Below are positions 21,936 through 62,648 of a stretch of 64,000 nt of DNA, one piece after another. Where the stretch lies: NCBI GenBank assembly GCA_038087875.1, contig CM075995.1, forward strand, positions 10,914,001 through 10,978,000, in the 5' to 3' direction. How positions within the stretch are numbered: the stretch's first letter is position 1; each line of letters begins with the position of its first letter. The DNA is from Malacoraja senta (Eukaryota). A model generated the notes under the pieces. The model ran no database searches and was not told the DNA's origin. It was given only the letters and a program-made list of their open reading frames with translations. The translations under genes were made by a program, and so were the position numbers.

Positions 21936-24881
21936 AATTGCGAGCGGTGCGAGGGGGGGAAGTGAAAACGGACGTCAAAGTGCTGTATATGAATGCGCGA
22001 AGTATAAGGAATAAAGTGGACGAGCTTGAGGCTCAATTAAAAACTGGCAAGTATGATGTTGTGGGAATTACTGAGACATGGCTGCAAGAGGGCCAGGGCT
22101 GGGAAATAGTAAGATTAAACGAGAACTTACCAGTTTGAAGTTTGATCTTTATTTTATGAGGAGTTACGTTGGTGATTACGTGAAGAACCCCGTCAGGGCG
22201 CATGCGCGTCAATCTTCAAAGCAGCGGTATGAAATCACAGACAACACCATAATTGAAGTAACATATTAAGATGATCAACATGAGAACTACCATTATGACC
22301 TTTTTTCTATGAGAGAGGGTTGGGCGTGGCGGGCACGTAATCACCAACGTAACTCCTCATAAAATAAAGATCAAACTTCAAACTGGTAAGTTCTCGTTTA
22401 ATCTTACTATTTTACTTCGGAGTCACGTGAGTGACTACGTGAAGATTTTAAAGCTCTGTGATTTTTATGCCGCAGATCAAAATCCCGGCTTCTCACTGCA
22501 TCGATTGACTCGGAGTATCATCAATAATGCTGTAAACATGACATTGCATATCATGCAAAAACAAAAGAGTTTTATTTTTGGTCATAAAACAACCAATAAA
22601 CCCTCTTAATGTAGGGCAACAAACGAAACAGAATGAAACAGTATTGAAAACAGACTTTAAACAATAGCAACAGCACTCAATATTGAGTTGGCAAACAGCC
22701 CTCCATCGGCAATCGGCCGATGGTAGTATTGCTGAAACACAAGTTCATTTTTCCAACCTGCGGCTTTTAATATATGGTCGATGGGAACGTCCATCGCCCT
22801 GGCCGCGGATGTTGCTACTGCGCTAGTGGAATGAGATGTAAACACATAAATGTTAATTCCTGCCTGAACCAATTCTTGCTTTAACCACCTTGAGATAGTC
22901 TGAACTGCCACTCTTTTATGTTGGCTTCTTGTAACTGAGAAATAATCCTGTTTCTTCTTGTCTTAAAGCCCTTGTGGCTTCAATGTAATGTAACAAATGT
23001 GTCCTTACACATAAACATGGAGCTGTATGATATGCTGAGAACACAATCTTAAAACCTGTCACACCTGGCCTGCTTTGTTTGAGCAGGTCAGAAATATAAA
23101 ACAGAACATTCTCTGTATTCACTTCCATTCTCTCGAACTGAAGTTTTTGGAAAGTCTGTACTCTCTGTACTGACACCAATGCCATTAGCATAGCCAATTT
23201 CATGGTTAATTTTAACAAAGTTATAGACGTGACAGGGACCCTATGACGAAGTATGTTACGAACAACACTTACCTCGCAGATTACCATATACCTAGGCTTA
23301 GGCGGTTTTGGAATTAAAGATTCCTTTCATCAACCTAGATATGAGAGGGTGAGAAACTATACTTTGTGTCCGTGTACCTATTACAAGATATGCCGACCAA
23401 GCACTTCTAGCTGTATTGATAGCAGTATAGCTAAGACCCTCATCATAATAAAGTGTATATAAACTCTAACACATTTTCAATAACTACAGTATCATATTGA
23501 ATATTCTTTTGAACACAATATTGTTCCCCTTTTTTTTTTTTTTTTTCATAAGTCATATACTGTTTTTGAGTACTGTTTCTCCAGGCTGCAGTGAGTATAT
23601 CCACCGTTGGCCTAGAAAGTCCTCGACCAATGTAAGGCATTCTTAAAACCTGCAAATTAACAGATCCATACCATCACATAACGGATGAACTTAATGCGTT
23701 ACTGGATGCTCCAGCTAATTCCTACTGTTTGGAATCAGCAAAAAGAGGTTGGATCGCTATCTGTAACATCAAAGGGAACCATGGTTGAATCAGGCAATTT
23801 GGTATCACCAAAACCCCTGAAGCAGCATCCTGCTTGATTTTCTCAAACACCGACCTATGAGACAGAATGGTGGGAAAATGTACACAAACATATCATCCCA
23901 ATTTAGTGAAAAAGCATCAATTGCCACTGCCCCTGGATCTGGTGCCTATGAAACATATTTTGGCCTTCCATATAGAAGTACTACATTAAGTTTCCTTGGT
24001 AGATAGATAGCTCCAATCCAAATCTCTCTATCCCTACTCCAGGTCCAATTGTATTTGCCAACCTGTCACATGATAACGATTTGATTCCACCCATGTGATT
24101 CATATCAGCAACTGCTGTAGTGTTGTCTATTTTGCACTGCACATGCAAACTAGTTTAGTTAGTGCCATAAGCCTTGAGTCCATAAAATACTCTTGGTTAA
24201 TTCCCCATGTTTGCAGAAGCAATGTTCATCTGTCTCCACCGCTAGATCTTGTATCAGTAGCACCCTACCCAAGTGCTCTGACATCTGTCTGCAAATCATG
24301 GAAGCTTGGTCCAATAACACTTTGGAACTACTAGTGGACACATGCTGAATCCACCATTGTACATCAGCAACAGCCTCTATTGATATAAGCATAGGTCTAT
24401 TATAATGACCCCAATGTATCCTCAATGCTTGTTCCTTTGACCTTTGTAATTGTAGATAATAAAGTGGCCATATTGAACTGCTGGAAATGCTGCGAGCCAT
24501 TACCACATCAGACTTGTCACCTGGCTAATTGAAGGCTGTGTGTCAGCAATTAACTTGATATAGCTCTTAATTAGCTCTACCCTTTTTTTTGCCTGGGCAA
24601 GGTCACAATGATGTTGATTAAGTCCATTGTGAACCCAACTAGTCAATTTGTGTCACAGGTATAAATTTAGATTTCTCTGGATAGCTTATAAAGCGAATGT
24701 CAAGAGATACAAAGTGGGACGGGGAGAGTGAGAGGTAGTTGGCCTCCCGGTGGAAATTGAGAGGGAGACGGAGAGGTGACTGAGTAGAGAGGTAGCTCCA
24801 GACCAGGACACTGAGAGTAGGAGAGAGAGTAGAAATTAATGACCGACCGTACGACCGTCCGGAGAAAGATTCTAGAGGCCC

Positions 24882-26081
24882 ATGGCTTCAGGGAGTGGTG
24901 GTTCTGAGGGTGGTGGGTGGCAGACTGTAGGTAAGGAAAAGGGGGGCTCTAAGAGAGAGGCATCGAGCGAAAGACCTGAAATGTCAGGAGATGAAGGAAG
25001 TAAAGTTAGGAGAACTAAAATTATTGAAGAATTCGTCGTGCTGTTTAAAGTTAAAGGAACAAATCACAGAGATGCAAGATTTAGAGCAGTGAATCCATTA
25101 AAAATTACCACCGCTTTGGAGAGCCAGATAGGTAGGGATTTTCAGGCCAAGATTCTGTATAATGGGATGTTAAGAGTTTGTTGCAAAGACAGAAAACAGT
25201 TTAATGACGCTAGGGGTGTGGGGAAGTTGGTGGTCAAGGTGGAGAGTTTGGTCCCTAGAGGAAGAGAGCAGGGAATAAAGGGAGTGGTGTATGGGATGTA
25301 TGATGGTTTGTCTGAGAAGGAGATCTTAGAAAATGTTAAGGGGGCCCAGGTAATTGATGTTGTGAGATTTAAGAGTAGGAATGGAGTCAGGGACCAGCCG
25401 GTCCTGCTTACGTTCAAAGATGGAGTACTGCCACAGAGAGTGTTTCTTGGGAGTATGGCGTATCAAGTGAGGGAGTACATTAAACCACCGTTGCGCTGCT
25501 ATAACTGTCAGAGGTTTGGACATGTTGCTGGGTCTTGTCGGGGTAAAAGAAAGTGCGCAAAGTGCGGTGGAGATCATGCAATACAAAATTGCAAGGCAGA
25601 GGCTCCTAAGTGCCCTAACTGTGATGGGGATCATGCAGCAGGGTTTCATGGTTGTAAGCGCTTTGTTCAGGCGAAGCGAGTACAGGAAGTGAAGGATCAG
25701 AACAACGTGTCATATGCAGAGGCAGCTCAAAGGGTGGCTAGAGAACGCGGAGATGTGAGCGCTGGGACTAGAGTGGTGCTAGGAAGCCAGATCACTGTGC
25801 CAAACTTGCCGTCGGCTTTTCCATCTGATATGTTGATTTTTAATAAGGAGTCATTTCTGTCTTTTGTTTCTGATGTGCTGGTAGGAGCTAAGAAAGCAGC
25901 TAACCGGTCAGATATCATCAGGTTAGTGGTGGGGGCAGCTGAAAGGTTCCTCAGTGTAAATCAGTTGCCAGAAAAGTTGCATCAATACATGACGGAGAGT
26001 CAGTGTATGGAGAGGTCACAGTTGTCGAGAGCTAGCAGTATGGAGTATGTCAGTGAGGTGGATGATGGTGATCCTCATTAA
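24882..26081 (+). CDS. Nimb/I ORF1p, gag-like with three zinc knuckles
   Basis: CYNCQRFGHVAGSC, CAKCGGDHAIQNC and CPNCDGDHAAGFHGC. Confidence 0.92.
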   Translation: MASGSGGSEGGGWQTVGKEKGGSKREASSERPEMSGDEGSKVRRTKIIEEFVVLFKVKGTNHRDARFRAVNPLKITTALESQIGRDFQAKILYNGMLRVCCKDRKQFNDARGVGKLVVKVESLVPRGREQGIKGVVYGMYDGLSEKEILENVKGAQVIDVVRFKSRNGVRDQPVLLTFKDGVLPQRVFLGSMAYQVREYIKPPLRCYNCQRFGHVAGSCRGKRKCAKCGGDHAIQNCKAEAPKCPNCDGDHAAGFHGCKRFVQAKRVQEVKDQNNVSYAEAAQRVARERGDVSAGTRVVLGSQITVPNLPSAFPSDMLIFNKESFLSFVSDVLVGAKKAANRSDIIRLVVGAAERFLSVNQLPEKLHQYMTESQCMERSQLSRASSMEYVSEVDDGDPH

Positions 26082-26088
26082 CACCATA

Positions 26089-29000
26089 ATGTTTTATATA
26101 CTTCAATGGAACGCCCGGAGTCTGATTGGAAATGGTCAAGAGTTAAAGAGATTTGTTGATGAATTTAAAGAAGCACCAGAATTAATATGTATCCAAGAGA
26201 CATGGTTAAAGCCCTGTTTAGATTTTGTAATCCCAGGTTATGAATGTGTGCGATTAGATAGGTCTGATAGATCAGGTGGGGGTTGTGCAACTTTTGTTAA
26301 GACTGGGTTGCAGTATAGGAAAGTTGATATTAATTCTAATCTTGAAGTTTTGGCTGTGGAAGTTTGGAGCAGCCAGAATTCTATCATTGTGATAAATTAT
26401 TATAACCCCTGTCAACCCTTGATATTGTCAGATTTTGATGAGATAATGGAGAAGGTAAGGTGTCCTGTTATATGGATTGGAGATTTTAATGCGCATAATC
26501 CTTTATGGGGTAGTGATCACAGGGATAAAAATGGTGTTATTGTTGAAGAATTTCTAGACAAGTATGAGTTGGTATTGTTAAATGATGGAAGGCCGTCTAG
26601 GTATAATATTGTGAGAAACACCTGCAGCCACATAGATTTATCAATTGCTTCATCAAATTTAGCAAGAATTGGTGAATGGGATGTAATGGATAGATATACA
26701 CTGGGTAGTGATCATTATCCAATTTTATGTAGGTTTGGTAGGGATTTGAGGAGAGAAGTGGAAAAGAAAGTCCCTAGATATAACTTTTATCAGGCCAAAT
26801 GGGATAAATTCCAAGAGAAGGCTCAAAGTTTAGTTGGAGAGGTTAATAGTGAGGGTTCTGTAGATAGTTGGAATACTTCCATTAGTCTCATGATTCATGA
26901 GGCAGCTTGTTGTACTATTCCTGTGAAGCAGGAACTTAGGTCCCGTATGTCTGTTCCTTGGTGGAATAAAGAATGTGATGAAGCTGTAAGGAATAGGAAT
27001 ATAGCCTATCGAAAATTAAGAAAGTATCCAATTTTGGTCAATGCAATGGAGTACAAGAGGCTAAGGGCAGTAGCAAGACGAGTTGTAAAGGATGCAAAGA
27101 GGAATAGTTGGAGGAAGTTTTGTGGTACGCTAGGCCCGGAAACTCCAGTAAGGCATTTGTGGTCAGCTGTGCGTAGAATGTCAGGAGTATATAAAAGAAG
27201 TTTGTTACCAGTGTTGCAGAAGGGTGAGGTGGTAGCAGTCACCAATAAGGAAAAAGCAGACATGTGTGTTGACAGTTTTCAAGCAGTGCATAGATCAGAG
27301 AGCATGGGAGTGGAGAGGTGTAGAAAGAGAACCGAGATGATGGCAGTTAATCAGTGGAAGCTGGAGAGGAGTTTAGTAAATGATAATACCTTTAATTTGT
27401 TTTTTACCATAAAAGAGTTGAAGGATGCAATTATGTCTGGGGCAAATACCACCCCGGGGAGAGATAGGTTGTCGTATGAGTTATTTAAACATCTGGATGA
27501 TATTGTACTTGATGAAATCTTAGCTTTGTTTAATACTGTGTGGGCAGAGGGTTATTTACCAAAGGAATGGAAACATGCAGTCGTGGTCCCTATTTTAAAA
27601 CCGGGTAAAGAGGCATCTGACCCTAGTTCATATCGCCCTATAGCGCTCACAGCAGTGCTCTGTAAAATTATGGAGAGGATGGTAACCAACAGACTAGTTT
27701 ATTTTTTAGAAACCAGAGGACTATTTGTTGATGTACAGAATGGCTTTAGGAATGGAAGGTGTACAATGGAGTCTGTATCAGTTTTGGATCAGGATATTAA
27801 AAGGGCATTTAGAAGCAAGGAAACAGTAGTGGGTGTATTCCTTGTTATTGAGAAGGCATATGATTCTTTGTGGAAGGAGGGATTAATGATTAAAATTTTT
27901 GACTTGGGAATCAGGGGACGAATGTTCAACTGGATTAAGGATTTTTTATTGAATAGAACAATACAAGTAATGGTTGGTAGTGTCAGATCGGAGTCTGTAG
28001 AAATAGAGAATGGAACCCCGCAGGGAAGTGTTATCAGTCCAGTTTTATTTAATATCATGATAAATGACATATTTTGTAAATTAGAGAGAGGATTTGGTCT
28101 GTCTTTGTTTGCAGATGACGGGGCCATCTGGAAAAGAGGTTGTAATGTAGAGTTTGTTTTAAAACAGATTCAAAGAGTGTTAGTGTCTGTAGAGGAATGG
28201 GGGAACACATGGGGCTTTAAAATCTCTGCCTCTAAGACTAAATATATGGTATTTGGTTTTAAAAGAAAGTTACCTAAGTTAGGGCTGTATATGTATGGGT
28301 CTCTATTGGAGAAGGTAAAGGTTTTTAAGTTTTTGGGTGTTTGGTTTGAAGAGCGTATGACTTGGGCTGTGCATGTAGGTAAAATTGTGTTGAAGTGTGA
28401 AAAAGTTCTGAATGTTATGAGAAGTCCGGTTGGGTGTGAGTGGGGGGCCAACAGGGAGACAATGTTGCTAATTTATCAGGCCATGATCAGATCTTCTCTT
28501 GACTATGGGTGTTTTGTGTATGGGTCTGCGTCTAAAACTGTTCTGGCTAGGCTAGATGTGTTGCAGGCAAAGGCTTTGAGGCTTTGCTGTGGAGCCTTCA
28601 GGACTTCCCCAGTCCCTGCCCTGATTGTTGAAATGGGAGAAATGCCCTTATGGTTAAGGCGCATTAAGCTAGGGTTACATTATTGGGCTAAACTTTGTGG
28701 GTGTAATGATACCTTCCCAGCAAGGTGTTTGTTGCAAGAGGTTGATGATGGTAACAAATATAACACATTTTTTGTCGTTATAAATCAGTGGGCTAGGAAG
28801 CTGGGTTTGGAACAAGGGGGTATTATAGAGCATACAATAAGGCTACCTGTGCCCTATTGGGTTCTTCCTGAACTGTTTATTGAGCTTGCTTTTCTTCAGG
28901 AAAAAGATAAGCGCGAGGTGACTCCAAGAATAGTGGAATATCTTAATTCAATCAGTGAGAGTACTTTGATTGTTTTTACAGATGGATCTAAAGATCCAGT

Positions 29001-29826
29001 TAGTGGGAGAGCTGGGTTTGGAGTGTATGTGGAGCAGCTTGGGTTGAAGATTGGCCGGCGCATTTCTGATGGAAGTTCTGTTCTCACGACTGAATTAATG
29101 GCAATTCAATGGGCTCTATGGTGGATTGAGGAAGCCAGTTTTAGAGAAGTCATTATCTGTTCTGATTCTGCAGCTGCTCTTGAAACTTTAAGAGTAGGGA
29201 AATCTAAAGCTCGTCCTGACATTCTAAATGAAATCTTGAGTGTGTTTTCTAGAATTGGGTTTGCGTGTAACATCACTTTTTGCTGGGTTCCCGGGCATGC
29301 TGGGGTGAGGGGGAATGAGCAGGTGGACCTCATAGCAAAGGAGAGTTTAAGAAGAGAAATAGATATCCATGTATCATTGGGGAGAGTGGAACTGAGAGAA
29401 ATAATTAAAGAGGGCGTAACAAAAGAATGGCAGAGAGGATGGGAAATGGAAGTCAGGGGTAGACACTACTTTTCTATACAATCTGAAGTTAGGAAAATAT
29501 GTTTCTGTACATCTCTGTCCCGTAGGGACTCAGTTAAACTGTGTAGATTGAGGTTGGGACACTGTGGGTTAAATTACTATTTGTGCATTGTAGGGAAACA
29601 TGTTTCTGGCTTGTGTGAATGTGGGAGTAATGAGACAGTTAAGCATGTTTTCCTAGAATGTAAAAAGTATAGGGTAGAAAGAAAAGTATTATTTGTTAGA
29701 CTGACAGGACTTGGAGTTGAGGCTTTTTCTGTTTTATCTTTGTTTGGACACAATGAGAAACATCAACTGATATCCAGGGCTGTTCTTCAATTCCTGCAAG
29801 TTACAGGACTGTATATAAGAATTTAG
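26089..29826 (+). CDS. Nimb/I ORF2p: APE endonuclease, RT, RNase H, C-terminal zinc finger
   Basis: QWNARSL, IQETWL, GDFNAH, SDHYP; YRPIAL, PQGS, LFADD; FTDGS, ELMAI, CSDS, WVPGHAGVRGNE; CECG...HVFLEC. Probable ATG at 26089 (the frame is open from 26047). Confidence 0.93.
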   Translation: MFYILQWNARSLIGNGQELKRFVDEFKEAPELICIQETWLKPCLDFVIPGYECVRLDRSDRSGGGCATFVKTGLQYRKVDINSNLEVLAVEVWSSQNSIIVINYYNPCQPLILSDFDEIMEKVRCPVIWIGDFNAHNPLWGSDHRDKNGVIVEEFLDKYELVLLNDGRPSRYNIVRNTCSHIDLSIASSNLARIGEWDVMDRYTLGSDHYPILCRFGRDLRREVEKKVPRYNFYQAKWDKFQEKAQSLVGEVNSEGSVDSWNTSISLMIHEAACCTIPVKQELRSRMSVPWWNKECDEAVRNRNIAYRKLRKYPILVNAMEYKRLRAVARRVVKDAKRNSWRKFCGTLGPETPVRHLWSAVRRMSGVYKRSLLPVLQKGEVVAVTNKEKADMCVDSFQAVHRSESMGVERCRKRTEMMAVNQWKLERSLVNDNTFNLFFTIKELKDAIMSGANTTPGRDRLSYELFKHLDDIVLDEILALFNTVWAEGYLPKEWKHAVVVPILKPGKEASDPSSYRPIALTAVLCKIMERMVTNRLVYFLETRGLFVDVQNGFRNGRCTMESVSVLDQDIKRAFRSKETVVGVFLVIEKAYDSLWKEGLMIKIFDLGIRGRMFNWIKDFLLNRTIQVMVGSVRSESVEIENGTPQGSVISPVLFNIMINDIFCKLERGFGLSLFADDGAIWKRGCNVEFVLKQIQRVLVSVEEWGNTWGFKISASKTKYMVFGFKRKLPKLGLYMYGSLLEKVKVFKFLGVWFEERMTWAVHVGKIVLKCEKVLNVMRSPVGCEWGANRETMLLIYQAMIRSSLDYGCFVYGSASKTVLARLDVLQAKALRLCCGAFRTSPVPALIVEMGEMPLWLRRIKLGLHYWAKLCGCNDTFPARCLLQEVDDGNKYNTFFVVINQWARKLGLEQGGIIEHTIRLPVPYWVLPELFIELAFLQEKDKREVTPRIVEYLNSISESTLIVFTDGSKDPVSGRAGFGVYVEQLGLKIGRRISDGSSVLTTELMAIQWALWWIEEASFREVIICSDSAAALETLRVGKSKARPDILNEILSVFSRIGFACNITFCWVPGHAGVRGNEQVDLIAKESLRREIDIHVSLGRVELREIIKEGVTKEWQRGWEMEVRGRHYFSIQSEVRKICFCTSLSRRDSVKLCRLRLGHCGLNYYLCIVGKHVSGLCECGSNETVKHVFLECKKYRVERKVLFVRLTGLGVEAFSVLSLFGHNEKHQLISRAVLQFLQVTGLYIRI

Positions 29827-35441: not shown

Positions 35442-36406
35442 AAAGTTGGACCCTTGAAGACCGAACAAGGAAATGGCAGATGAGTTGAACAGGTACTTTG
35501 GATCTGTCTTCACTTAGGAGGACACAAACAATCTTCCTGATATAGTAGTGGCCAGATGATCTGGGGTGACGGAGGAACTGAAGGAAATCCACATTAGGCA
35601 GGAAATGGTGTTGGATAGACTGATGGGACTCAAGGCTGATGAATCCCCAGGGCCTGATGGTCTGCATCCCAGGGTACTTAAGGAAGTGGCTCTAGAAATC
35701 GTGGATGCATTGGTGATAATTTTCCAATGTTCTTTAGACTCGGGATCAGTTCCTGTGGATTGGAGGGTAGTTAATGTTATCCCACTTTTTAAGAAAGATG
35801 GGAGAGAGAATATAGTTAGCCCGACATCGGTGGTGGGGAAGATGCTAGAGTCAATTATAAAAGATGAGATAACCAAACATTTGGATAGCAGTAACAGGAT
35901 GGATGGATCAGCATGGATTTACGATGGGAAATTTATGCTTGACTAATTTTCTGGAATTTTTTGAAGATGTAACTAGGAAAATGGACAACGGAGAGCCAGT
36001 GGATGTAGTGTATTTGGACTTTCAGAAAGAATTTGGTAAGGTCCCACATAGGAGATTAGTGGGCAAAATTAGGGCACATGGTATCGAGGGTAGAGTGCTG
36101 ACATGGATAGAGAAGTGGTTGGCAAACAGGAAACAAAGAGTAGGGATTAACAGGTCCCTTTCAGAATGGCAGGCAGTGACTAATGGGGTACCGAAAGGCT
36201 CGGTGCTGGGACTGCAGCTATTTGCAATATACATCAAAGATTTGGATGAAGGGATTCAAAGTAACATTAGCAAATTTGCAGATGACACAAAGCTGGGTGG
36301 CAGTGTGAACTGTGAGGAGGATGCTATGAGAATGCAGGGTGACTTGGACAGGTTGGGGGAGTGGGCAGATGCATGGCAGATGAAGTTTAATGCGGATAAA
36401 TGTGAA

Positions 36407-39400
36407 GTTTTACTTCGGAGTCACGTGAGTGGGCTGGAGGCAAATCAAGGCAAAAAACATACCGGCCGGTTATGTCTCACTCCGATGAGGAGGACTCTCT
36501 GCCTTAGAGCGGCAGAGCTAGCTGCCTGAGCTGCATGGAAAGGCTCATGGAGCAAATGCTCCAGCGAGACTTGCTTCGGGAGCTGGAGCAGTCTCGCCAA
36601 GGGATCTCAGGCACTCCCACATCAGTGCTCTACAATGCACTGGCCATCGCTTTCCCCTCAGCCGAGGGCAGCGTTGGTGACCAGGGCTGGGCTGGTCAGC
36701 AACAGGGGTCATTGGCTGAAGATGTCGGGAGTACGCTTGGGGTACAGGATCAGAAAGAGCTGCTGGGTGTGGAGATTCGCTACGTTGTTACACCACGAGC
36801 AGGGCGGCCGTTGCAGCCAAATCTGGCGGCCAGCATTACCCACCTGTCCCTCAAACCCCTACAAAATCAGGGGGGGTATGTTGGACAGAGTATCCGGAGC
36901 CAGAAGCTAAAATTACAACGCATCCTCAAGCTCCTGATAACAGGGATAACATCCTATGCTCGTTCCGTGGATGGGGTGGATATGACCACAAACCAGCAAG
37001 ACACTCTGGCTCTGCTGTGCAACACCCAATATGAGATAAACAACCTCCGCAAGGAGAGAATAAGACCTGCCCTCAATCCCAGGTTTGCAGGACTGTATAA
37101 AACACCGGCCTCAGAGCCGCAGATCCTGTTATTTGGAAGGACAAGTGAAAGACCTGGAGGAAGAGTCCAAAGCATTTGGCCTCATGAGGGCAGGACCCGG
37201 AACGAGCAGACCCACACAAAAAACCAGACGGCAGTCCCCCACCGCGTCCACCAGTCGAGGTCAAATTTATGGAACTGGTGAAAGCTCGGGGTCCGCATAC
37301 TATCCCCGAAAGCCTTTTTAGGCCAGGGCCCAGAGCGGACCCCATGGAAAATGCGCCACCCCCAATCAGCAGTACATCCAGCAGTACAACGACAGATGAA
37401 CAAACGGAAGAAAGGAACACTACCATAACTATGGAGGTAGGTGGGTCTGGTTCCTACCAGCATGTAAAAGTGGGGGAACTGTACTAACAGGGGGGAGATT
37501 ACACCTGTTCATTGAAGCATGGAGGTGTCTCACGAATGATAGTTATATACTTAACAGTATTCGGGGATACAAAATAGAGTTCATTCAAGAAAACATGCCA
37601 CCAGTTCAGCACGTACCCCAAAGGGTCTTTACCCTCTCAGTCAAAGAGAAACTAGAGGCTCAAGCAGAACTGGTGAGGTTACTTACAAAGGGTGTCATTG
37701 AGAAATCCAAACATGAACCTTTGGAATTTGTCTCAAATATATTTACCAAAAGCAAAAAAGATGGTGGGTGTCGCATCATCATTGACTTAACTTCACTAAA
37801 TTCCTTTGTTAAGTATGTACATTTCAAAATGGAAACATTTGTAACTGCCAAACAACTGATTTCCAAAGGATACTTTATGGCAAGCATTGATTTAAAAGAT
37901 GCCTACTATTCAGTACCCATTCATAAGGGTCATCGCAGATACCTGAAATTTACCTGGATGGGGCAACTATGGCAGTATAAAGCGTTGCCTAATGGGTTGA
38001 CATCAGCCCTAGACTATTTACCAAGATATTAAAACCAGCCTTGGCAACATTAAGGAAACAAAGACACATTGTCATGGCATATCTTGATGATATCCTAATA
38101 GTAGGCAAAACCATGGAGTTGGCTAAATCAGCTGTATTAGCTACCAAACAATTGTTTGAAACCCTGGGTTTTGTCACACATCCAGATAAATCTAAGTTGA
38201 CGTCATCCACAACTATGGACTATCTGGGATTCACAATTAACTCAGTCCACATGTCTGTAACGTTGCCAAAAGGTAAAGCAGCAGAATTGGCACAGATGTG
38301 CAACAATTTAATGGTAAGCAATCGACCAACCATCCTACAAGTGGCAAGAGTAATTGGCAAAATGGTAGCAGCATTTCCAGCTACACAATTTGGACCCCTG
38401 CACTATCAGCACCTACAAAGGGCTAAAGTACAGGCGTTGAAACGACATGCAGGTCACTTTGACCGAACCATGAAACTACCCATTGAAGCAATATCAGAGT
38501 TACAATGGTGGATAGAACACATTTGGCATAGTTCCAGCCCTATCATCATCAATAACCCAACGTTAACTATACAAACAGATGCCAGTGCTCAAGGCTGGGG
38601 AGCAACTAAAACCATATCCAGCACAGGTGGTAGATGGACTAACCTAGAATCATCTTTACTACAAACACTGGGCATAAATTATTTGGAAATGTTGGGTGCG
38701 TTTTATGGTTTAAAAGCATATTTTAGGAATATGCACCATTTGCATGTTCGTTTACAAATTGATAATATCACCATGTACCAATGTATGTTCCTTGGGAACC
38801 ACACCCTGAGGCAGCAGCGATAGATGCATTCGCGCTGAACTGGGGGACCTATTTCTTCTATGCTTTTCCCCCCTTCTGCCTTAATCTGTAGGGTACTATG
38901 CAAAATACAGATGGACTCTGCTTCAGGTATTTTGATAGTACCAACTGGCCTACACAGCCATGGTTCCCAGTGGTCCTCGACATGGTCATCGAAACTCCTA
39001 TGATCTTTCCCAGTAGCCCAGACCTATTGACGCACCCTGTATCAGGCATAAGTCATCCATACCATGACAAAATTAACCTACTGGGTTGCAGATTATCAAA
39101 AGACCACTGCTGGGACTGGGCTTGTCTGACAGGACCATCAACATGATGACACCGTATGTCCACCAGGAAACAATACCTATCGAGCATCAGGAAGTGGGAA
39201 AGATACTGCTCGACTACTGGGACAACGTACTCATCTGCAACCATAACCAATGTACTGGAGTTCCTGGGGGGCCTTCACCATAATGAAGGATTGAGCTACA
39301 TCGCCATCAATACTGCCAGACGTGCGCTGCCAGCCTACTTAAAACAGGTGCCAGGACAACAGGCCATAGGGTCTCACCCGCTGGTGATCAAACTCAGGAG

Positions 39401-40545
39401 GAGTATAGTCAACTCCAACCCTCTTAGACCTAGGTATACCCAAATCAGGGATGTCAGTGTGGTCCTGACATATCTAAGGGGATGGTCCCCAGCCAGGTCT
39501 CTCACCCTGGAAAAGCTAACCCTGAAAACGGTCATGCTGATGCCACCAGTCTCAGCACAAAGAGTCCAGTCCCTCCACTTACTGCGACTGGACAACATGG
39601 TTATAACACCAGACCGGGTCTCATTCACCATTCAGGAGCTGCTAAAGCAGAGCAGACCAGGAACTTGAGTCCTAGTTATGGATTTCCGGGCATACCCACC
39701 TGACCTACGGTTGTGTGTCATGACTCACTTATTCACTTACATCAACACAACAAGAGATTCTGGAGGGAGAAAAAAGGAAGAAAAAAAAAAAAAAAGCCTT
39801 ATGGGTCAGCCACAAGAAACCTCATGGTTGGCTGTCGAGCCAAACCATCTCAAGATGGATCAAGCAGGTACTGGGAGCTGCTGGAGTAGATACTGATGTA
39901 TATACATCTCACTCCACCAGGGCAGCATCCACATCGGCGGCTAAAAGAATGAACATGGAGAAAACGTTCCAAACGTTCTACAACAAGCCACTAGCAGAAC
40001 CTGTGTTATTTGCAGAAAGAGTTTTAGAATCTGCAAAAATATATAATTTAAGCCCGGGGGAGCATTTTGTCTTTTGTTATTGTTTAATAGATACCATTAT
40101 TGTTTACAAACAGATTATGATTGATTACGATAACATACTTCCTCCCTTGAATGACTTCGGCAGCGAGTGAAGTATGAACTGTTACACGGTTTGAAATCAC
40201 AGAGCTTTAAAATCTTCACGTAGTCACTCACGTGACTCCGAAGTAAAATAGTAAGATTAAACGAGAACTTACCAGTTTGAAGTTTGATCTGTATTTTATG
40301 AGGAGTTACGATGAGGGATTACGTGCCCTCCGCTCCCACCCTCAATTATTGATCAACTGGTATCTTAGTTCTCCTTTTCTTTACTATGTTTATTTCAATT
40401 ATTGTGTTTCCTGTGATTCCACACCGCTGTTTGAAGAATGTCGCGCATGCGTGCTGGACGGGCTCTTCACGTAATCCCTTATCGTAACTCCTCATAAAAT
40501 ACAGATCAAACTTCAAACTGGTAAGTTCTCGTTTAATCTTACTAT
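36407..40545 (+). mobile_element. DIRS1-like retrotransposon (gag, RT/RNase H, MT-like, YR), frameshifted, 5' ITR mostly deleted
   Basis: SIDLKDAY, LPNG, YLDD, QTDAS, INYLE; AIDAFALNW...YAFPPF near 38815-38880; YR QRVQSL and SHSTRAAS. ICR at about 40200-40325 and 3' terminus at 40440-40545. Confidence 0.93.
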
Positions 40546-43803: not shown

Positions 43804-43931
43804 TAACACACTCTTTTCACAAAGGATTGCCATATTAACCTTTGTGTCTGAGGGTCTTTCTCCATCACCATACTCAGGAGGAGTTTGGAACCATCGAGCC
43901 AATTTTCATTCTTCACTTGCTGAATGACTTT
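43801..43931 (-). pseudogene. NLR-like receptor exon (second half of the N-terminal death-fold-like domain), truncated by Penelope
   Basis: Acceptor ttctttgcag|AAA. Reads KVIQQVKNENWLDGSKLLLSMVMEKDPQTQRLIWQSFVK, resembling the SSKLLLSLVMEKGSRARRVMWETFVK-type motif I recall from elasmobranch NLR proteins. Phase 0 matches the upstream exon. Confidence 0.72.
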
Positions 43932-50900: not shown

Positions 50901-51418
50901 CCCCTAACTATAGAGTCCCCTATTAGTATTGCCCTCCTCTTCTTTTCCTTACACATCTGAGCAACAGGACCGGTCTCTGTACTGGAGGCCCGGCCGCTGT
51001 TGCTACCCCCAGGTAGGCTGTCCCCCCCAACAGTGCTCAAACAGGAGTACTTATTGTCAAGGTTAAAGTTATTGAGTACAAGAGTCAGGAAGTCAAGATG
51101 CCGCACTATATGTCTTTGATTAGGCTCCCTTTGGAATATTGCGTGCGGTTCTGTTGCCCCATTACAGGAAAGACTCGGAAGGTTTGGAGTGGGTCCAGGG
51201 TGCAACCAGAATGCTGCATGGATTTGAGGGTTTCATAAACAGGGAGAGGTTGGATAGACTTTGATTATTTACTCTGGAACGTTGGAGGTTGGAGGGTACA
51301 CTTGATAGAAATATATAAAATTAAGATTACAATTTTAATTATTTTTTCATAAATGCGCTATTCGATCGAGTAAAATTCTGAGATTCAATATAAATAATCA
51401 ATTTCTTTCCAACTCAAC

Positions 51419-51585
51419 CTGTTATTCTTGTCCACTGAAATATCTCTCGTATGTTAACATGAAGCTGACTTTGTCCACCGCTTCTTCTGTCGTCTGCTCT
51501 AGCCTCTCACGGTAATAATTTGTCAATTGAAATAGTTGATCATCATCCATCACTTTCAGGAGCTCAGTGATTATAGATATTGCAT
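51419..51585 (-). pseudogene. NLR-like receptor exon (first half of the N-terminal death-fold-like domain) with an in-frame stop
   Basis: Acceptor ttgcttacag| and donor CAG|GTTGAG. Reads (D)AISIITELLKVMDDDQLFQLTNYYRERLEQTTEEAVDKVSFMLTYERYFSGQE*Q, with TAA at 51422-51424. Confidence 0.78.
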
Positions 51586-52476: not shown

Positions 52477-52592
52477 CATTCACTCATTCATTCATTCATT
52501 CATTCATTCATTCATTCACTCACTCATTCATTCACTCACTCATTCATTCCCTCACTCATTCATTCCCTCATTCATTCACTCATTCATTCACT
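52477..52592. repeat. (TCAT/TCAC)n microsatellite
   Basis: Read directly. A second (TTCA)n tract lies at 54523-54565. Confidence 0.97.
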
Positions 52593-53059
52593 CAGCGGCG
52601 ACCCGAGCCCGGCAGCGGCGACCCGACTCGGGCTTGGAGCTGTGGCGGCGGCAGCAGCAGCAGGGCGACCCGACTCGGCCTCGGAGCTGTGGCAGTGTTC
52701 CAGCGGCAGCGGCGACCCGACTCAGTCATGGAGCTGTGGCGGCGGCAGCAGCAGCAGCGGCAGCGGTAGCGGCGACCCGACTCGGCCTCGGAGCTGTGGC
52801 GGCGGCAGCGCCGACGCGACTAGGCCTTGGAGCTGTGGCTGTGGCGGCGGCAGCGGCCCGACCTCGGAGGCTCGGCCGCGGGCCCGGCGGACTCGGCCGT
52901 GGGCCCAGTGGACGACATCGTCTGGAGCTCGCGGATCACAGGTTGGTGACCTGTTTTTCCGGAACTCCCGCAACGACAGCTTCGTCCGCTGGTCTGGAGG
53001 GCGGCAGCTTCGGCAGCTTCGACCAAAGACACTAGAGGAGCTATATAATCTTTGGAGGG

Positions 53060-53232
53060 AAGGGGGGGAGAGAGGGAAGGGAGGGAGGGAAAGAACGGAG
53101 AGAGATGGAGAGAGGGAGGGAGATCGAGAGAAGAGAGGGGAGAGAGAGAGATCGGGAGAGGAGAGGGGAGAGAGAGAGATCGAGAGAAGAGAGGGGAAAG
53201 AGAGATCGAGAGAAGGGGAAGAGAGAGAGATC
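53060..53232. repeat. GA-rich low-complexity tract
   Basis: Read directly. Confidence 0.95.
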
Positions 53233-53468
53233 GAGTCTGACTCCGCGGTGTTTTCGATCCAGCGCCGCCCGCCCGCGGCGGGACGCCCTCAGACCGCAGA
53301 CCGCAGACCCTCGATGTTGGTGGTCGGCAGACACAGCACTCCGGAGCGGCGACCCGGCAAGGCATCACCCGCTCCGTGTTGGTGTCCCAGCGCTGAGAGA
53401 GAGAAGGGGAGAGGGAGAGGGAGAGTGGAACGATGGCACGTTATAACGCGCAGCCGTCCCATTCCGAC

Positions 53469-53504
53469 CAAAGATTATAGAGCAGAGCTCCTCTAGTATC
53501 TTTG
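53469..53504. mobile_element. 36-bp fused-TIR remnant with perfect 8-bp TSD
   Basis: ATTCCGAC|CAAAGATTATAGAGCAGAGCTCCTCTAGTATCTTTG|ATTCCGAC. Confidence 0.85.
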
Positions 53505-53547
53505 ATTCCGACCGCCGCCGCCGAATCCCCCGCCCCACCATTGCACC

Positions 53548-53584
53548 CAAAGATTATAGAGCGAGTGGAGTTTTATAATCTTTG
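53548..53584. mobile_element. 37-bp fused-TIR remnant with perfect 8-bp TSD
   Basis: ATTGCACC|CAAAGATTATAGAGCGAGTGGAGTTTTATAATCTTTG|ATTGCACC. Confidence 0.85.
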
Positions 53585-53689
53585 ATTGCACCCTTCTTCA
53601 CGGCGGGTTGTGATCTTTGCTTGTGGTGTCTCCACAATTCGAGGGACATAACCGGTAACAGCCGCCGCGTTCTCGGACCCGAATGTGAG

Positions 53690-53748
53690 CTGGAAAAATC
53701 TCGTGGTGGGCCTAATGTGTCCCGCGGGCCATATTTTGGAGACCCCTG
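53690..53748 (-). mobile_element. Single hAT (Charlie/Buster-like) transposon end
   Basis: The minus strand begins CAGGGGTCTCCAAAATATGGCCCGCGGG, typical of vertebrate hAT termini. The partner end was not found. Confidence 0.55.
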
Positions 53749-53956
53749 CCTTACAAGAACAAAACCAAAAACGTACAGAAGTGTTAAAATTATTGACTTT
53801 ATTATTGGTAAATAAAGATCTATTAAAAATAATTCCAATAACTTTCTAATGTACCGACAAACCTAGTTTCCCAATGACCGTTGATGGGAGACCAGAAAAT
53901 AACATTTTCAGTTCAGAATAAAATCGACAGATGTCAAATATAATATATTTTCTCAC

Positions 53957-54066
53957 CTTTCTTTTTTATCGGGGAACCTAAAGAATGACAGGTCGGGTCG
54001 TTTACATTGACGATTAGAGCAATTGATAGCAGAGCAGTGAGATGAAGATTTAGATGTAGATGCCAT
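53957..54066 (-). pseudogene. First exon of a THAP zinc-finger transposase (orphan)
   Basis: MASTSKSSSHCSAINCSNRQCKRPDLSFFRFPDKKE(R): C-x4-C and FxFP THAP signature, then a phase-2 donor AG|GTGAGA. Confidence 0.8.
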
Positions 54067-54889
54067 GACTGTAGTCGAGGCACGCGGTAAAATGGCGTCA
54101 ACAATCACCCATGGCATACTACCCTTTTTTCGCTGAGTGGCGCATCTTGCTCCGCTATATAATCTTTGGATTCGACCACCCTGGGCGGTGGAGTTTGAAC
54201 CGGCCCGTTCGCGGAGCAGGGTTGAGCCGCGGGACTGACTTACTTTACCATCACCCGGTGGGGTCACAACATCTGAATTACCATCACCCGGTGGGGTCAC
54301 AACATCTGAAGCCTGGATCGCCTCGGCGCAGAGGGAAAACAAAGAGGAAGAGGCAGAGACTTTAAGGTTTTGCCTTCCATCACAGTGAGAAGGTGCCTGG
54401 TGAACTCACTGTGGTGGATGTTAAATTTGTGTTTATTGTGTGTTTTTGTCATTTTTATTATATGTATGACTGCAGGCAACGAAATTTCGTTCAGACTGAA
54501 AGGTCTGAATGACAAAAATAAAATTCAATTCAATTCATTCATTCATTCATTCATTCATTCATTCACAACCCGTTAATTAGGCTGGTTCAGGAGCAGGACC
54601 TCTGCGACAGTGTCATTAAAAAAACACTCACAATTATATTCATCATATTATTTTAATATAATATAATTATAATTAATTATATATGATTACAGTCATATTT
54701 ACAAGTTATAGTTTAAATGGACTGCATATAGTTTAAATGGACTGCAACACGGAAATAGGCTGCCCATGGTGTAATATGGGCATTGACAGCTAGATGGCGG
54801 TCACGTTCCCGATCTCATTTTCTAATTAGTTTAATTAATTAATGTGCAGCTTTTGGCAATGACGAGTTATGACTTCCTTCTCAATTATA

Positions 54890-61770: not shown

Positions 61771-62648
61771 TGGCAGCGCTGCCCTAGTAACTGTGGCTCG
61801 CCTGCAATCTGTCGGTTTTTTCTTTTTGTTGTTGTTTTCTTTTGTCCTGTTTTAGTTACATTTATTTTTTTAGGTTGTGAATGTGTGGGGTGGGGGGGGC
61901 GGGGTGGGAGAAACATGTTTTTGGTCACTTCCTTCGAGGGAAGTCGACCTTTTCTTGTCGTATCCCCCGTCTCCGTCTGCACTGAGGCCTAATGGCGGAA
62001 CTGGCGGCCTCCAACTGGGACCGACCTCGAGGCTCCGGAGGCAGAGCCAGCCAGGACTTACCAACGCGAGGCTGGCCGACTTCGGTGCTGTGGTGGCGTT
62101 GCGGCGGTGGGCCGACTTTAGGGCTGTGGCGGTGTTCCGGCGGCGGCGGCCCGACTTCGGGGCTGTGGCGGCGTTCCGGCGATGGTGACCCGACTTCGGA
62201 ACCTCGGAGGGTCGGCCGTGGGCCCAGTGGACGACATTGCTTTCAGGTCACAGGTTGGTGACCTGTGTTTTCGGAGCTCCCGCAACAACGGCTTCGTCCG
62301 CTGGACTGGATGGCGGCAGCTTCGACCGCCCCGGGCCGCGGAGATTGAATCAGCCCGTTCGCGGAGCTCGGTTTCAGCCGCGGGACTGACTTACTTACCA
62401 TCACCCACAACATCGAAAGCCGAGATTGCCTCAGCGCAGAGGGAGACAAGGAGGGAAGAGACAAGGACTTTAAGACTTTTGCCTTCCATCACAGTGAGGA
62501 GGTGCCTGGTGGACTCACTGTGGTGGATGTTAAATTTGTGTTTATTGTGTGTTTTGTTATTTTATTCTATGTTATGACTGCAAAGCACGAAATTTCGTTC
62601 AGACCGAAAGGTCTGAATGACAATAAAGGATACTTATATTTACTTATA
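61771..62648 (+). mobile_element. Non-coding retroposon (about 880 bp) inserted into CR1
   Basis: Splits the CR1 sequence gtgaag|aaagcgaatgg. 3' hairpin TTCAGACC-GAAA-GGTCTGAA, AATAAA and a TACTTATA-repeat tail. Homologous to 52593-54565. Confidence 0.8.

What the first reader, a model, noticed from the sequence alone, without database searches (positions are those of the whole stretch)
53024..54168. THAP-exon-bearing P-like element with asymmetric ends
Seen: a 1145-bp insert splitting a retroposon that is uninterrupted at 62317-62330. It has a 7/8-matching TSD, ends sharing only CAAAGA plus a loose extension, and an intact spliceable THAP first exon (54066-53957) about 100 bp inside one end. 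Inference: an internally deleted P-superfamily derivative. The retained promoter region and exon 1 lie in the same orientation as the NLR pseudogene, inside its intron, so it could in principle splice to downstream exons.
Basis: partly seen in the sequence, partly recalled or inferred. Interest (0 to 1): 0.7.

Follow-up and report, generated by a model that had tools for sequence, protein, structure and literature searches.

The report
Skate P transposon carrying excision scars
A non-coding, multi-copy P-type jumping element, most likely from a skate, carries several tiny end-to-end remnants shaped like the scars fruit-fly P elements leave when they cut out, hinting that vertebrate P elements used the same unusual long staggered cut.

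Summary
The 1145-bp insert is real: 7/8 target duplication, empty site at 62319-62326, THAP exon 1 (54066-53957) with a GT donor. Its relatives are P-superfamily transposases (skate 86-92%; Drosophila P transposase the only PDB hit), not hAT. The interior is a multi-copy family in 4 of 4 runs laid. This is the architecture of Drosophila P excision junctions (8-bp TSD + 17 + 17 nt + TSD). Contigs lacking the units exist. Best reading: a non-autonomous P family whose master copy collected excision scars. Whether a scar half was re-used as the left end is untested. Interest moderate.

The parts
53016..53023 (+). left copy of 8-bp target duplication GCTTCGAC
   Evidence: single copy at empty site 62319-62326
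53024..53054 (.). unit 1, the left terminus: 17 nt of end type B joined head to head to 14 nt of end type A (inner half identical over 15 of 15 nt to the right terminus); no duplication of its own
53055..53235 (.). GA-rich imperfect tandem repeat (period 26-28)
53236..53749 (.). GC-rich interior (GC 0.59, CpG o/e 1.02), multi-copy, origin unknown; holds units 2-4
53461..53512 (.). unit 2: ATTCCGAC + 36 bp (19 nt end A, 17 nt end B, head to head; 53469-53504) + ATTCCGAC
   Evidence: identical with flanks in one X19 contig; contigs lacking it in X1 and X4
53540..53592 (.). unit 3: ATTGCACC + 37 bp (two A-type halves; 53548-53584; 33 bp in some family copies) + ATTGCACC
   Evidence: contigs lacking it in X1 and X4
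53607..53627 (.). unit 4 (candidate): 5-nt end remnant CTTTG (53615-53619) between two 8-mers that match at 6 of 8 here and at 8 of 8 in one X19 contig
   Evidence: positions; tables 3, 4, 8
53750..53956 (-). AT-rich start of intron 1 of the transposase gene (GC 0.29); at 53858 one X4 contig carries a one-sided 17-nt end remnant
53957..54066 (-). transposase exon 1, 36 codons + 2 nt, first half of a THAP domain, phase-2 GT donor; exon 2 absent from the window
54067..54168 (-). 5' leader and right terminus (end A, CAAAGATTATATAGCGGAGCAAGATG read inwards); promoter activity not shown
   Evidence: 23 X1 contigs leave at 54169 into unlike flanks
54169..54176 (+). right copy of target duplication GATTCGAC (7 of 8)
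52590..54520 (+). host retroposon split by the insert (approximate limits)
   Evidence: empty-site contigs X1 52, X4 38, X19 4, X23 4 at 54171
51422..51585 (-). NLRP3-like exon (phase-1 acceptor) with an in-frame stop; neighbour, not part of the element
43815..43931 (-). truncated next NLRP3-like exon (phase-0 acceptor); neighbour

Best explanation
A copy of a non-autonomous P-superfamily family of skates. It kept the 5' end, leader, exon 1 and start of intron 1 of a P transposase gene, makes no transposase, and was moved in trans by cut-and-paste, making an 8-bp duplication in a retroposon (shown: anatomy, homology, copy spread; inferred: trans-mobilisation). The 31-37-bp units are excision scars: P copies hopped into this DNA, were cut out again with the long staggered cut that leaves about 17 nt of each end on the donor, and end joining fused the two tails between the two target copies (inferred from architecture). 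Units 2 and 3 were already in a master copy before it amplified, since other copies and other organisms carry them with the same flanks. The exon is a passenger: splicing to the NLR exons would give a 42-43-aa stub.
For: Homologues carry P-type HTH, RNase H and GTP-binding domains (P0009 86% over exon 1; P0018/P0020 82-84% to P0009); only PDB hit of the profile is Drosophila P transposase 6P5A, E 1e-52. All 30 bins covered in 4 of 4 runs; 23 X1 contigs leave the right end into unlike flanks. Units 2 and 3 have perfect, different 8-bp duplications, beyond chance. Published Drosophila donor junctions read TSD + 17 nt + 17 nt + TSD with variable trimming and filler (PMC2895639 table rows; cut position PMC7776569 section 7). 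Every long half here stops at or before GGAG(C), and none holds the AAGATG that follows in intact A ends; junctions differ from site to site (17+14, 19+17, 37 or 33 bp, 0+5, 17+0, and a 34-bp 17+17 form in 18 X4 contigs). Contigs without unit 3 or without both units exist (X1 4 contigs, X4 3).
Against: Two halves reach 19 nt, not 17 (they carry the 2-nt longer A variant), so a strict 17-nt rule is not met. The sequence that follows position 18 of end B in an intact element is unknown, so the stop at GGAG(C) could also be the natural end of the inverted repeat. Empty-site joints rest on 21-22 letters on the short side at 80% likeness, which the tool flags as weak; units 4 and the 17+0 remnant rest on one contig each. 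Unit 3 has two A-type halves. No full-length element with these ends was seen.
Confidence: 0.7

Rival explanations
1. The units are ultra-short MITEs made of two inverted repeats that inserted as 31-37-bp elements.
For: Each of units 2 and 3 has intact ends and a perfect 8-bp duplication; similar units seem to stand at other loci (X23: 4 contigs leave 53504 into unlike flanks).
Against: Junctions differ between sites and include one-sided forms. With 17-nt staggered cuts a 34-bp unit would have no duplex left, so P chemistry as described cannot move it (inference).
Confidence: 0.12
2. The units arose without transposase cutting, by replication slippage or microhomology deletion across the hairpin formed by the two inverted repeats of an inserted element, or by aborted gap repair.
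For: Units 2 and 3 fold as hairpins (z -2.7 and -6.9); the centre of units 1 and 2 can be read as a 2-nt GC overlap; microhomology miniaturisation of transposons is described (PMC3814204 abstract).
Against: Such deletions should often keep sub-terminal sequence; 0 of 7 halves tested hold AAGATG. Three to five events within 840 bp fit repeated hopping and excision better.
Confidence: 0.1
3. The retained leader and exon 1 act as a promoter/exon trap that drives a THAP-NLR fusion.
For: Same strand, canonical donor, 1.44 kb from an NLR acceptor; CpG o/e about 1. Gene models in little skate fuse this family's N-terminus to host domains (P0004/P0005 B-box TRIM, P0016).
Against: Both joins are out of frame; NLR exon has a stop, next exon is truncated, no NACHT exon in the window. 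The skate fusions use about 200-250 residues, not exon 1 alone, are predictions, and the one Logan cluster member lacks the THAP part.
Confidence: 0.05
4. The element belongs to hAT/Zaphod (THAP0/PRKRIR-like), which also has THAP and 8-bp duplications.
For: Source names read '52 kDa repressor ...-like'; the targets fit hobo's GTNCGNAC as well as P's GTCCGGAC; a stretch ending near 53749 resembles a Charlie-type end (recalled, untested).
Against: Domain content and PDB hit are P-type; hAT excision leaves flank-derived, not end-derived, footprints (recalled).
Confidence: 0.02

Closest known systems
Drosophila melanogaster P element and its NHEJ excision junctions (PMC7776569, PMC2895639)
   Same: THAP-HTH-RNase H-GTP-binding transposase in the relatives; 8-bp TSD; CA...TG ends; head-to-head end remnants of about 17 nt between two target copies
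   Different: 31-bp perfect TIR there, imperfect 17-20 bp here; remnants there come from laboratory crosses, here they are fixed inside an amplified family; halves here reach 19 nt
Zebrafish Pdre elements / zfTHAP9 (PMC10983969)
   Same: vertebrate P family with internally deleted copies and 8-bp TSDs
   Different: different TIR (13 bp CATACCTGTCAAC); sections 6 and 10 report excision with larger flanking deletions and do not map the cut; no scars described in the parts read
BuT5, P-associated MITE of the Drosophila repleta group (PMC3698922)
   Same: about 1 kb, non-coding, short imperfect ends, 8-9-bp TSD, interior unlike the master element
   Different: no transposase exon and no nested end remnants in the passages read
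Skate RefSeq THAP proteins XP_032900886.1, XP_032888604.1 (Amblyraja radiata) and Priapulus XP_014671368.1
   Same: 34, 32 and 31 of 37 residues identical to the exon
   Different: they continue into exon 2 and the P HTH/RNase H; annotated as host genes

Membership tests
P superfamily | 7-9-bp (typically 8-bp) target duplication | tested here: met
   outer 7 of 8, inner 8 of 8 twice; empty host sites
P superfamily | terminal inverted repeats | tested here: met
   imperfect, to GGAGC, with one 2-nt gap; right end is a true terminus in 23 X1 contigs
P superfamily | transposase with THAP, HTH, RNase H and GTP-binding insertion | tested here: met
   by homology only: this copy has exon 1; P0009 has THAP+HTH+RNase H N, P0017/18/19/20 the GTP-binding domain; 6P5A sole PDB hit
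P superfamily | these ends flank a full transposase gene in some copy | not testable with these tools
   no genome held; metagenome scans empty; indirect: leader peptide VDAIL shared with P0027
P superfamily | 17-nt staggered cleavage | tested here: inconclusive
   remnant halves of 14-19 nt, plus 5+0 and 17+0 forms; indirect only
P superfamily | GTP-dependent pairing; sub-terminal THAP-binding sites | not testable with these tools
   needs biochemistry
P superfamily | target motif GTCCGGAC | tested here: inconclusive
   19 of 40 positions over 5 sites, p about 0.002 against local octamers, post hoc; hobo shares GTNCGNAC
hAT/Zaphod THAP elements | hAT-type catalytic and dimerisation domains behind THAP | tested here: not met
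   0 of 15 protein scans
MITE / non-autonomous family | high copy number without coding capacity | tested here: met
   30 of 30 bins covered by many divergent contigs in 4 of 4 runs (depth is not a copy number); no exon 2 in the window
MITE / non-autonomous family | uniform size and shared left end | not tested
exon-trap chimera with NLR | in-frame splice to an intact host reading frame | tested here: not met

The most novel reading that the evidence does not exclude
Because a P-type cut leaves nearly the whole short inverted repeat of this family on the donor, excision scars stay usable as transposon ends: the outer half of a scar (unit 1) paired with a 5' end 1.1 kb away and carried the DNA between them, founding a new non-autonomous family. 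Scars would then be seeds for new elements and for capture of host DNA, and skate genomes would hold a readable record of the cut position of a vertebrate P transposase of a lineage that may have crossed between marine phyla.
Probability: 0.3. Interest if true: 0.7.

Novelty: new variant of a known kind. Interest (0 to 1): 0.45.

Why it matters
The 17-nt staggered cut is the signature of P chemistry and is established for the Drosophila enzyme; the zebrafish THAP9 sections read here do not map it. Natural scars in a skate would be in vivo germline evidence that a vertebrate P transposase cut the same way, and their length distribution would give the cut position without an enzyme. If scar halves can be re-used as ends, that is a route to new non-autonomous families that other superfamilies lack. 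The NLR fusion idea does not hold.

Tried and rejected
No own genome. Metagenome scans with P0009 and with alignment A3: 0 of 63 and 0 of 269 pattern matches confirmed. The 17-nt end in viral contigs: 10 matches, none with similarity to the insert or the proteins, taken as chance. No RNA holder listed; no loose end at the donor among the 24 of 447 loose ends shown: no verdict on expression or splicing. Pfam did not recognise the NLR exons (0 of 2) nor any NLR domain in 87 of 159 unique minus-strand ORFs given; ESM Atlas no usable hit; NLR identity came. NLR exon 1 not found in the window. Earlier scan findings: none by sequence, place or words. Paper searches listed nothing on skate P elements or natural vertebrate P scars; Repbase and Dfam could not be searched, so the family may be catalogued there. 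My first reading of unit 2 as exactly 17+17 at this site was dropped: the window and one X19 contig have 19+17, and the 34-bp form may stand at other loci. PMC2707370 and PMC12361510 passages gave nothing relevant.

Full report
Observation. The insert runs 53024-54168 (1145 bp) between GCTTCGAC and GATTCGAC; the host retroposon aligns on both sides to a continuous copy with one GCTTCGAC at 62319-62326. The minus strand has an ATG at 54066 and a 110-nt exon ending AG|GTGAGA. Pfam THAP scores 18.8 bits, under the cut-off. The source is not given; nearest named proteins are from Amblyraja radiata at 92% (THAP) and 94% (NLR exon), so a skate is inferred.

Family. A 41-residue query returned 8 proteins among 13 candidates: Amblyraja, Leucoraja, Priapulus, Octopus, Gymnothorax, Myxine. 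Their source names suggest PRKRIR or THAP2, but Priapulus P0003 and moray P0007 carry the P HTH, Amblyraja P0009 carries THAP, P HTH and P RNase H N, and four unnamed relatives carry the GTP-binding insertion; P0018 and P0020 are 82% and 84% identical to P0009 where they overlap. A profile of four of them hit one sequence of 177,635 in the PDB, Drosophila P transposase, E 1e-52. No hAT domain appeared in the 15 scans. Only exon 1 is in the window. At least five Amblyraja contigs hold near-identical N-termini.

Ends. Read inwards the right end is CAAAGATTATATAGCGGAGCAAGATG (type A) and the left CAAAGACACTAGAGGAG (type B). With a 2-nt gap they match to GGAGC. Loose ends in other runs show an A form without these 2 nt, which differs from B (as in unit 2) at 2 of 17 positions. 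So the ends are an imperfect 17-20-bp inverted repeat.

Copy spread. All 30 bins were covered in all four; 23 X1 contigs leave at 54169 into unlike flanks; 52, 38, 4 and 4 contigs show the empty host site. Depth is not a copy number, and the tables were cut (24 of 447 loose ends, 15 of 21 joints, 12 of 52 indels, 32 of 3620 pieces shown). Shorter derivatives exist: an A end joined to 53851 (X4, X19), the GA repeat joined to 53807 (one X19 contig).

The units. Three CAAAGA...TCTTTG pairs under 50 bp exist in the window, all in the insert: 53024-53054 (31 bp, B17 + A14, no own duplication), 53469-53504 (36 bp, between ATTCCGAC copies), 53548-53584 (37 bp, between ATTGCACC copies). A motif-free scan found the latter two and nothing else in 64 kb; 60 simulated windows gave 1 in all. 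Contigs carry units 2 and 3 with the same flanks (X19 53434-53525 without a difference; X4 53434-53606), so they predate amplification. Other contigs skip unit 3 (X1, 2) or both (X1 2, X4 3) and keep a single target; one X4 contig lacks unit 2 and has about 10 nt left of unit 3. These joints have only 21-22 letters on the short side. Variants: 2 nt fewer at 53483 (X4 18 contigs, X19 1, X23 2, X1 0), giving 17+17; 4 nt fewer at 53563, giving 33 bp. One X19 contig makes 53608-53627 a perfect 8-bp repeat around CTTTG; one X4 contig has exactly 17 nt of end A after GTACCGAC at 53858.

Mechanism. Drosophila P transposase cuts at the 3' end and 17 bp inside on the other strand (PMC7776569, section 7 and passages), leaving 17-nt 3' tails on the donor (PMC8951532 passage). 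Sequenced junctions read target + up to 17 nt + filler or overlap + up to 17 nt + target (PMC2895639, passages with table rows); remnants of 13, 36 and 38 bp are reported in revertants (PMC6086398 passages). The skate units have this form, differ from one another, and none of 7 halves contains the AAGATG that follows in intact A ends. Shown: anatomy, duplications, empty sites, homology. Inferred: that transposase cutting and end joining made them; that repeated local hopping explains their clustering. Against a strict match: two halves are 19 nt, as long as the longer A variant up to the same GGAG; either the cut is set by sequence, or there is filler, or the units are simply whole inverted repeats. 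A micro-MITE reading needs other chemistry, since 17-nt staggers leave no duplex in 34 bp (inference). The five targets fit GTCCGGAC at 19 of 40 positions (p about 0.002, post hoc), but hobo's motif is alike (PMC3276498 passages).

Left terminus. Unit 1 is itself a scar-like join whose inner half is identical over 15 nt to the right end, in the same direction. Either two elements moved as one composite and the inner one was later cut out at this locus, or the outer half of an older scar served as the left end of the family. The second is the novel case; it needs the left-end flanks of other copies, which I could not read.

NLR. Two minus-strand exons match skate NLRP3-like proteins (93% and 79% over the aligned stretches); the first has an in-frame stop, the second breaks off at 43815, and neither exon 1 nor a NACHT exon is in the window. 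Exon 1 of the element is phase 2, the acceptors phase 1 and 0; both joins stop after 7 and 6 codons. Exon 1 alone lacks the second Cys and His of the THAP zinc site (C2CH). Little-skate gene models do fuse about 200-250 residues of this family to host domains (P0004, P0005, P0016), so trapping may occur elsewhere, but these are predictions.

Spread across phyla. Skate P0009 and Priapulus P0003 share 71 of 92 THAP, 57 of 100 linker and 67 of 78 HTH residues. In a tree of 31 N-termini (126 columns, midpoint root) 14 rows from skates, priapulid, hagfish, octopus, moray, pipefish and one unnamed source form a clade (95/91), hagfish with octopus (95/87); Priapulus with a skate subfamily is weak (84/78). 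This suggests horizontal transfer but does not show it.

Known versus new. Vertebrate P families with deleted copies are known from zebrafish (PMC10983969, passages and sections 6 and 10; supplements not read); a 1-kb P MITE with short imperfect ends is known (PMC3698922 passages); movement of DNA next to a transposon is described for Ds (PMC1978519 abstract). Ten library searches listed nothing on skate P elements or natural P scars in vertebrates; the library lacks most subscription papers, Repbase and Dfam. Verdict: P membership about 0.95; scars about 0.75; recycled scar as end about 0.3; NLR fusion protein about 0.05. Interest 0.45.

Noticed in passing
window 51061-51118: A possible lone end of a related P-like family, ending CAAGATGCCGCACTATATGTCTTTG next to a break in a retroelement; no partner end or duplication found within 3 kb.
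   Followed up: partly
window 53710-53749 (-): Stretch beginning CAGGGGTCTCCAAAATATGGCCCGCGGG resembles a hAT/Charlie-type end (recalled, untested); no clear partner end or duplication.
   Followed up: no
window 24876-29826 (+): Non-LTR retrotransposon with two long open frames (401 aa and 1277 aa stop to stop), apparently unbroken, so probably young.
   Followed up: no
window 22500-24500 (-) and 36400-40200 (+): Broken tyrosine-recombinase (DIRS-like) retroelement pieces; phage-integrase Pfam hit E 0.0009 at 22660-22962.
   Followed up: no
P0004, P0005, P0016 (Leucoraja erinacea gene models): N-terminal 200-250 residues of this P family fused to a B-box TRIM or to a coiled-coil host C-terminus; candidate exon-trap chimeras, RNA support not checked.
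   Followed up: partly
P0006, P0014, P0015 (three Octopus species): The same THAP clade kept as a 399-406-aa protein in three species; possible domestication.
   Followed up: no
P0002 and P0180 (Amblyraja): A longer copy of this THAP family and the NLRP3-like gene lie on a contig of the same length with close accession numbers; whether they are neighbours was not checked.
   Followed up: no
window 53024-54168: CpG observed/expected is about 1 throughout the insert against 0.44 for the window: young or unmethylated. Two YY1-like motifs in the leader (recalled consensus).
   Followed up: partly
window 54245-54310: Perfect 33-bp tandem duplication in the host retroposon, absent from the copy at 62390.
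   Followed up: no
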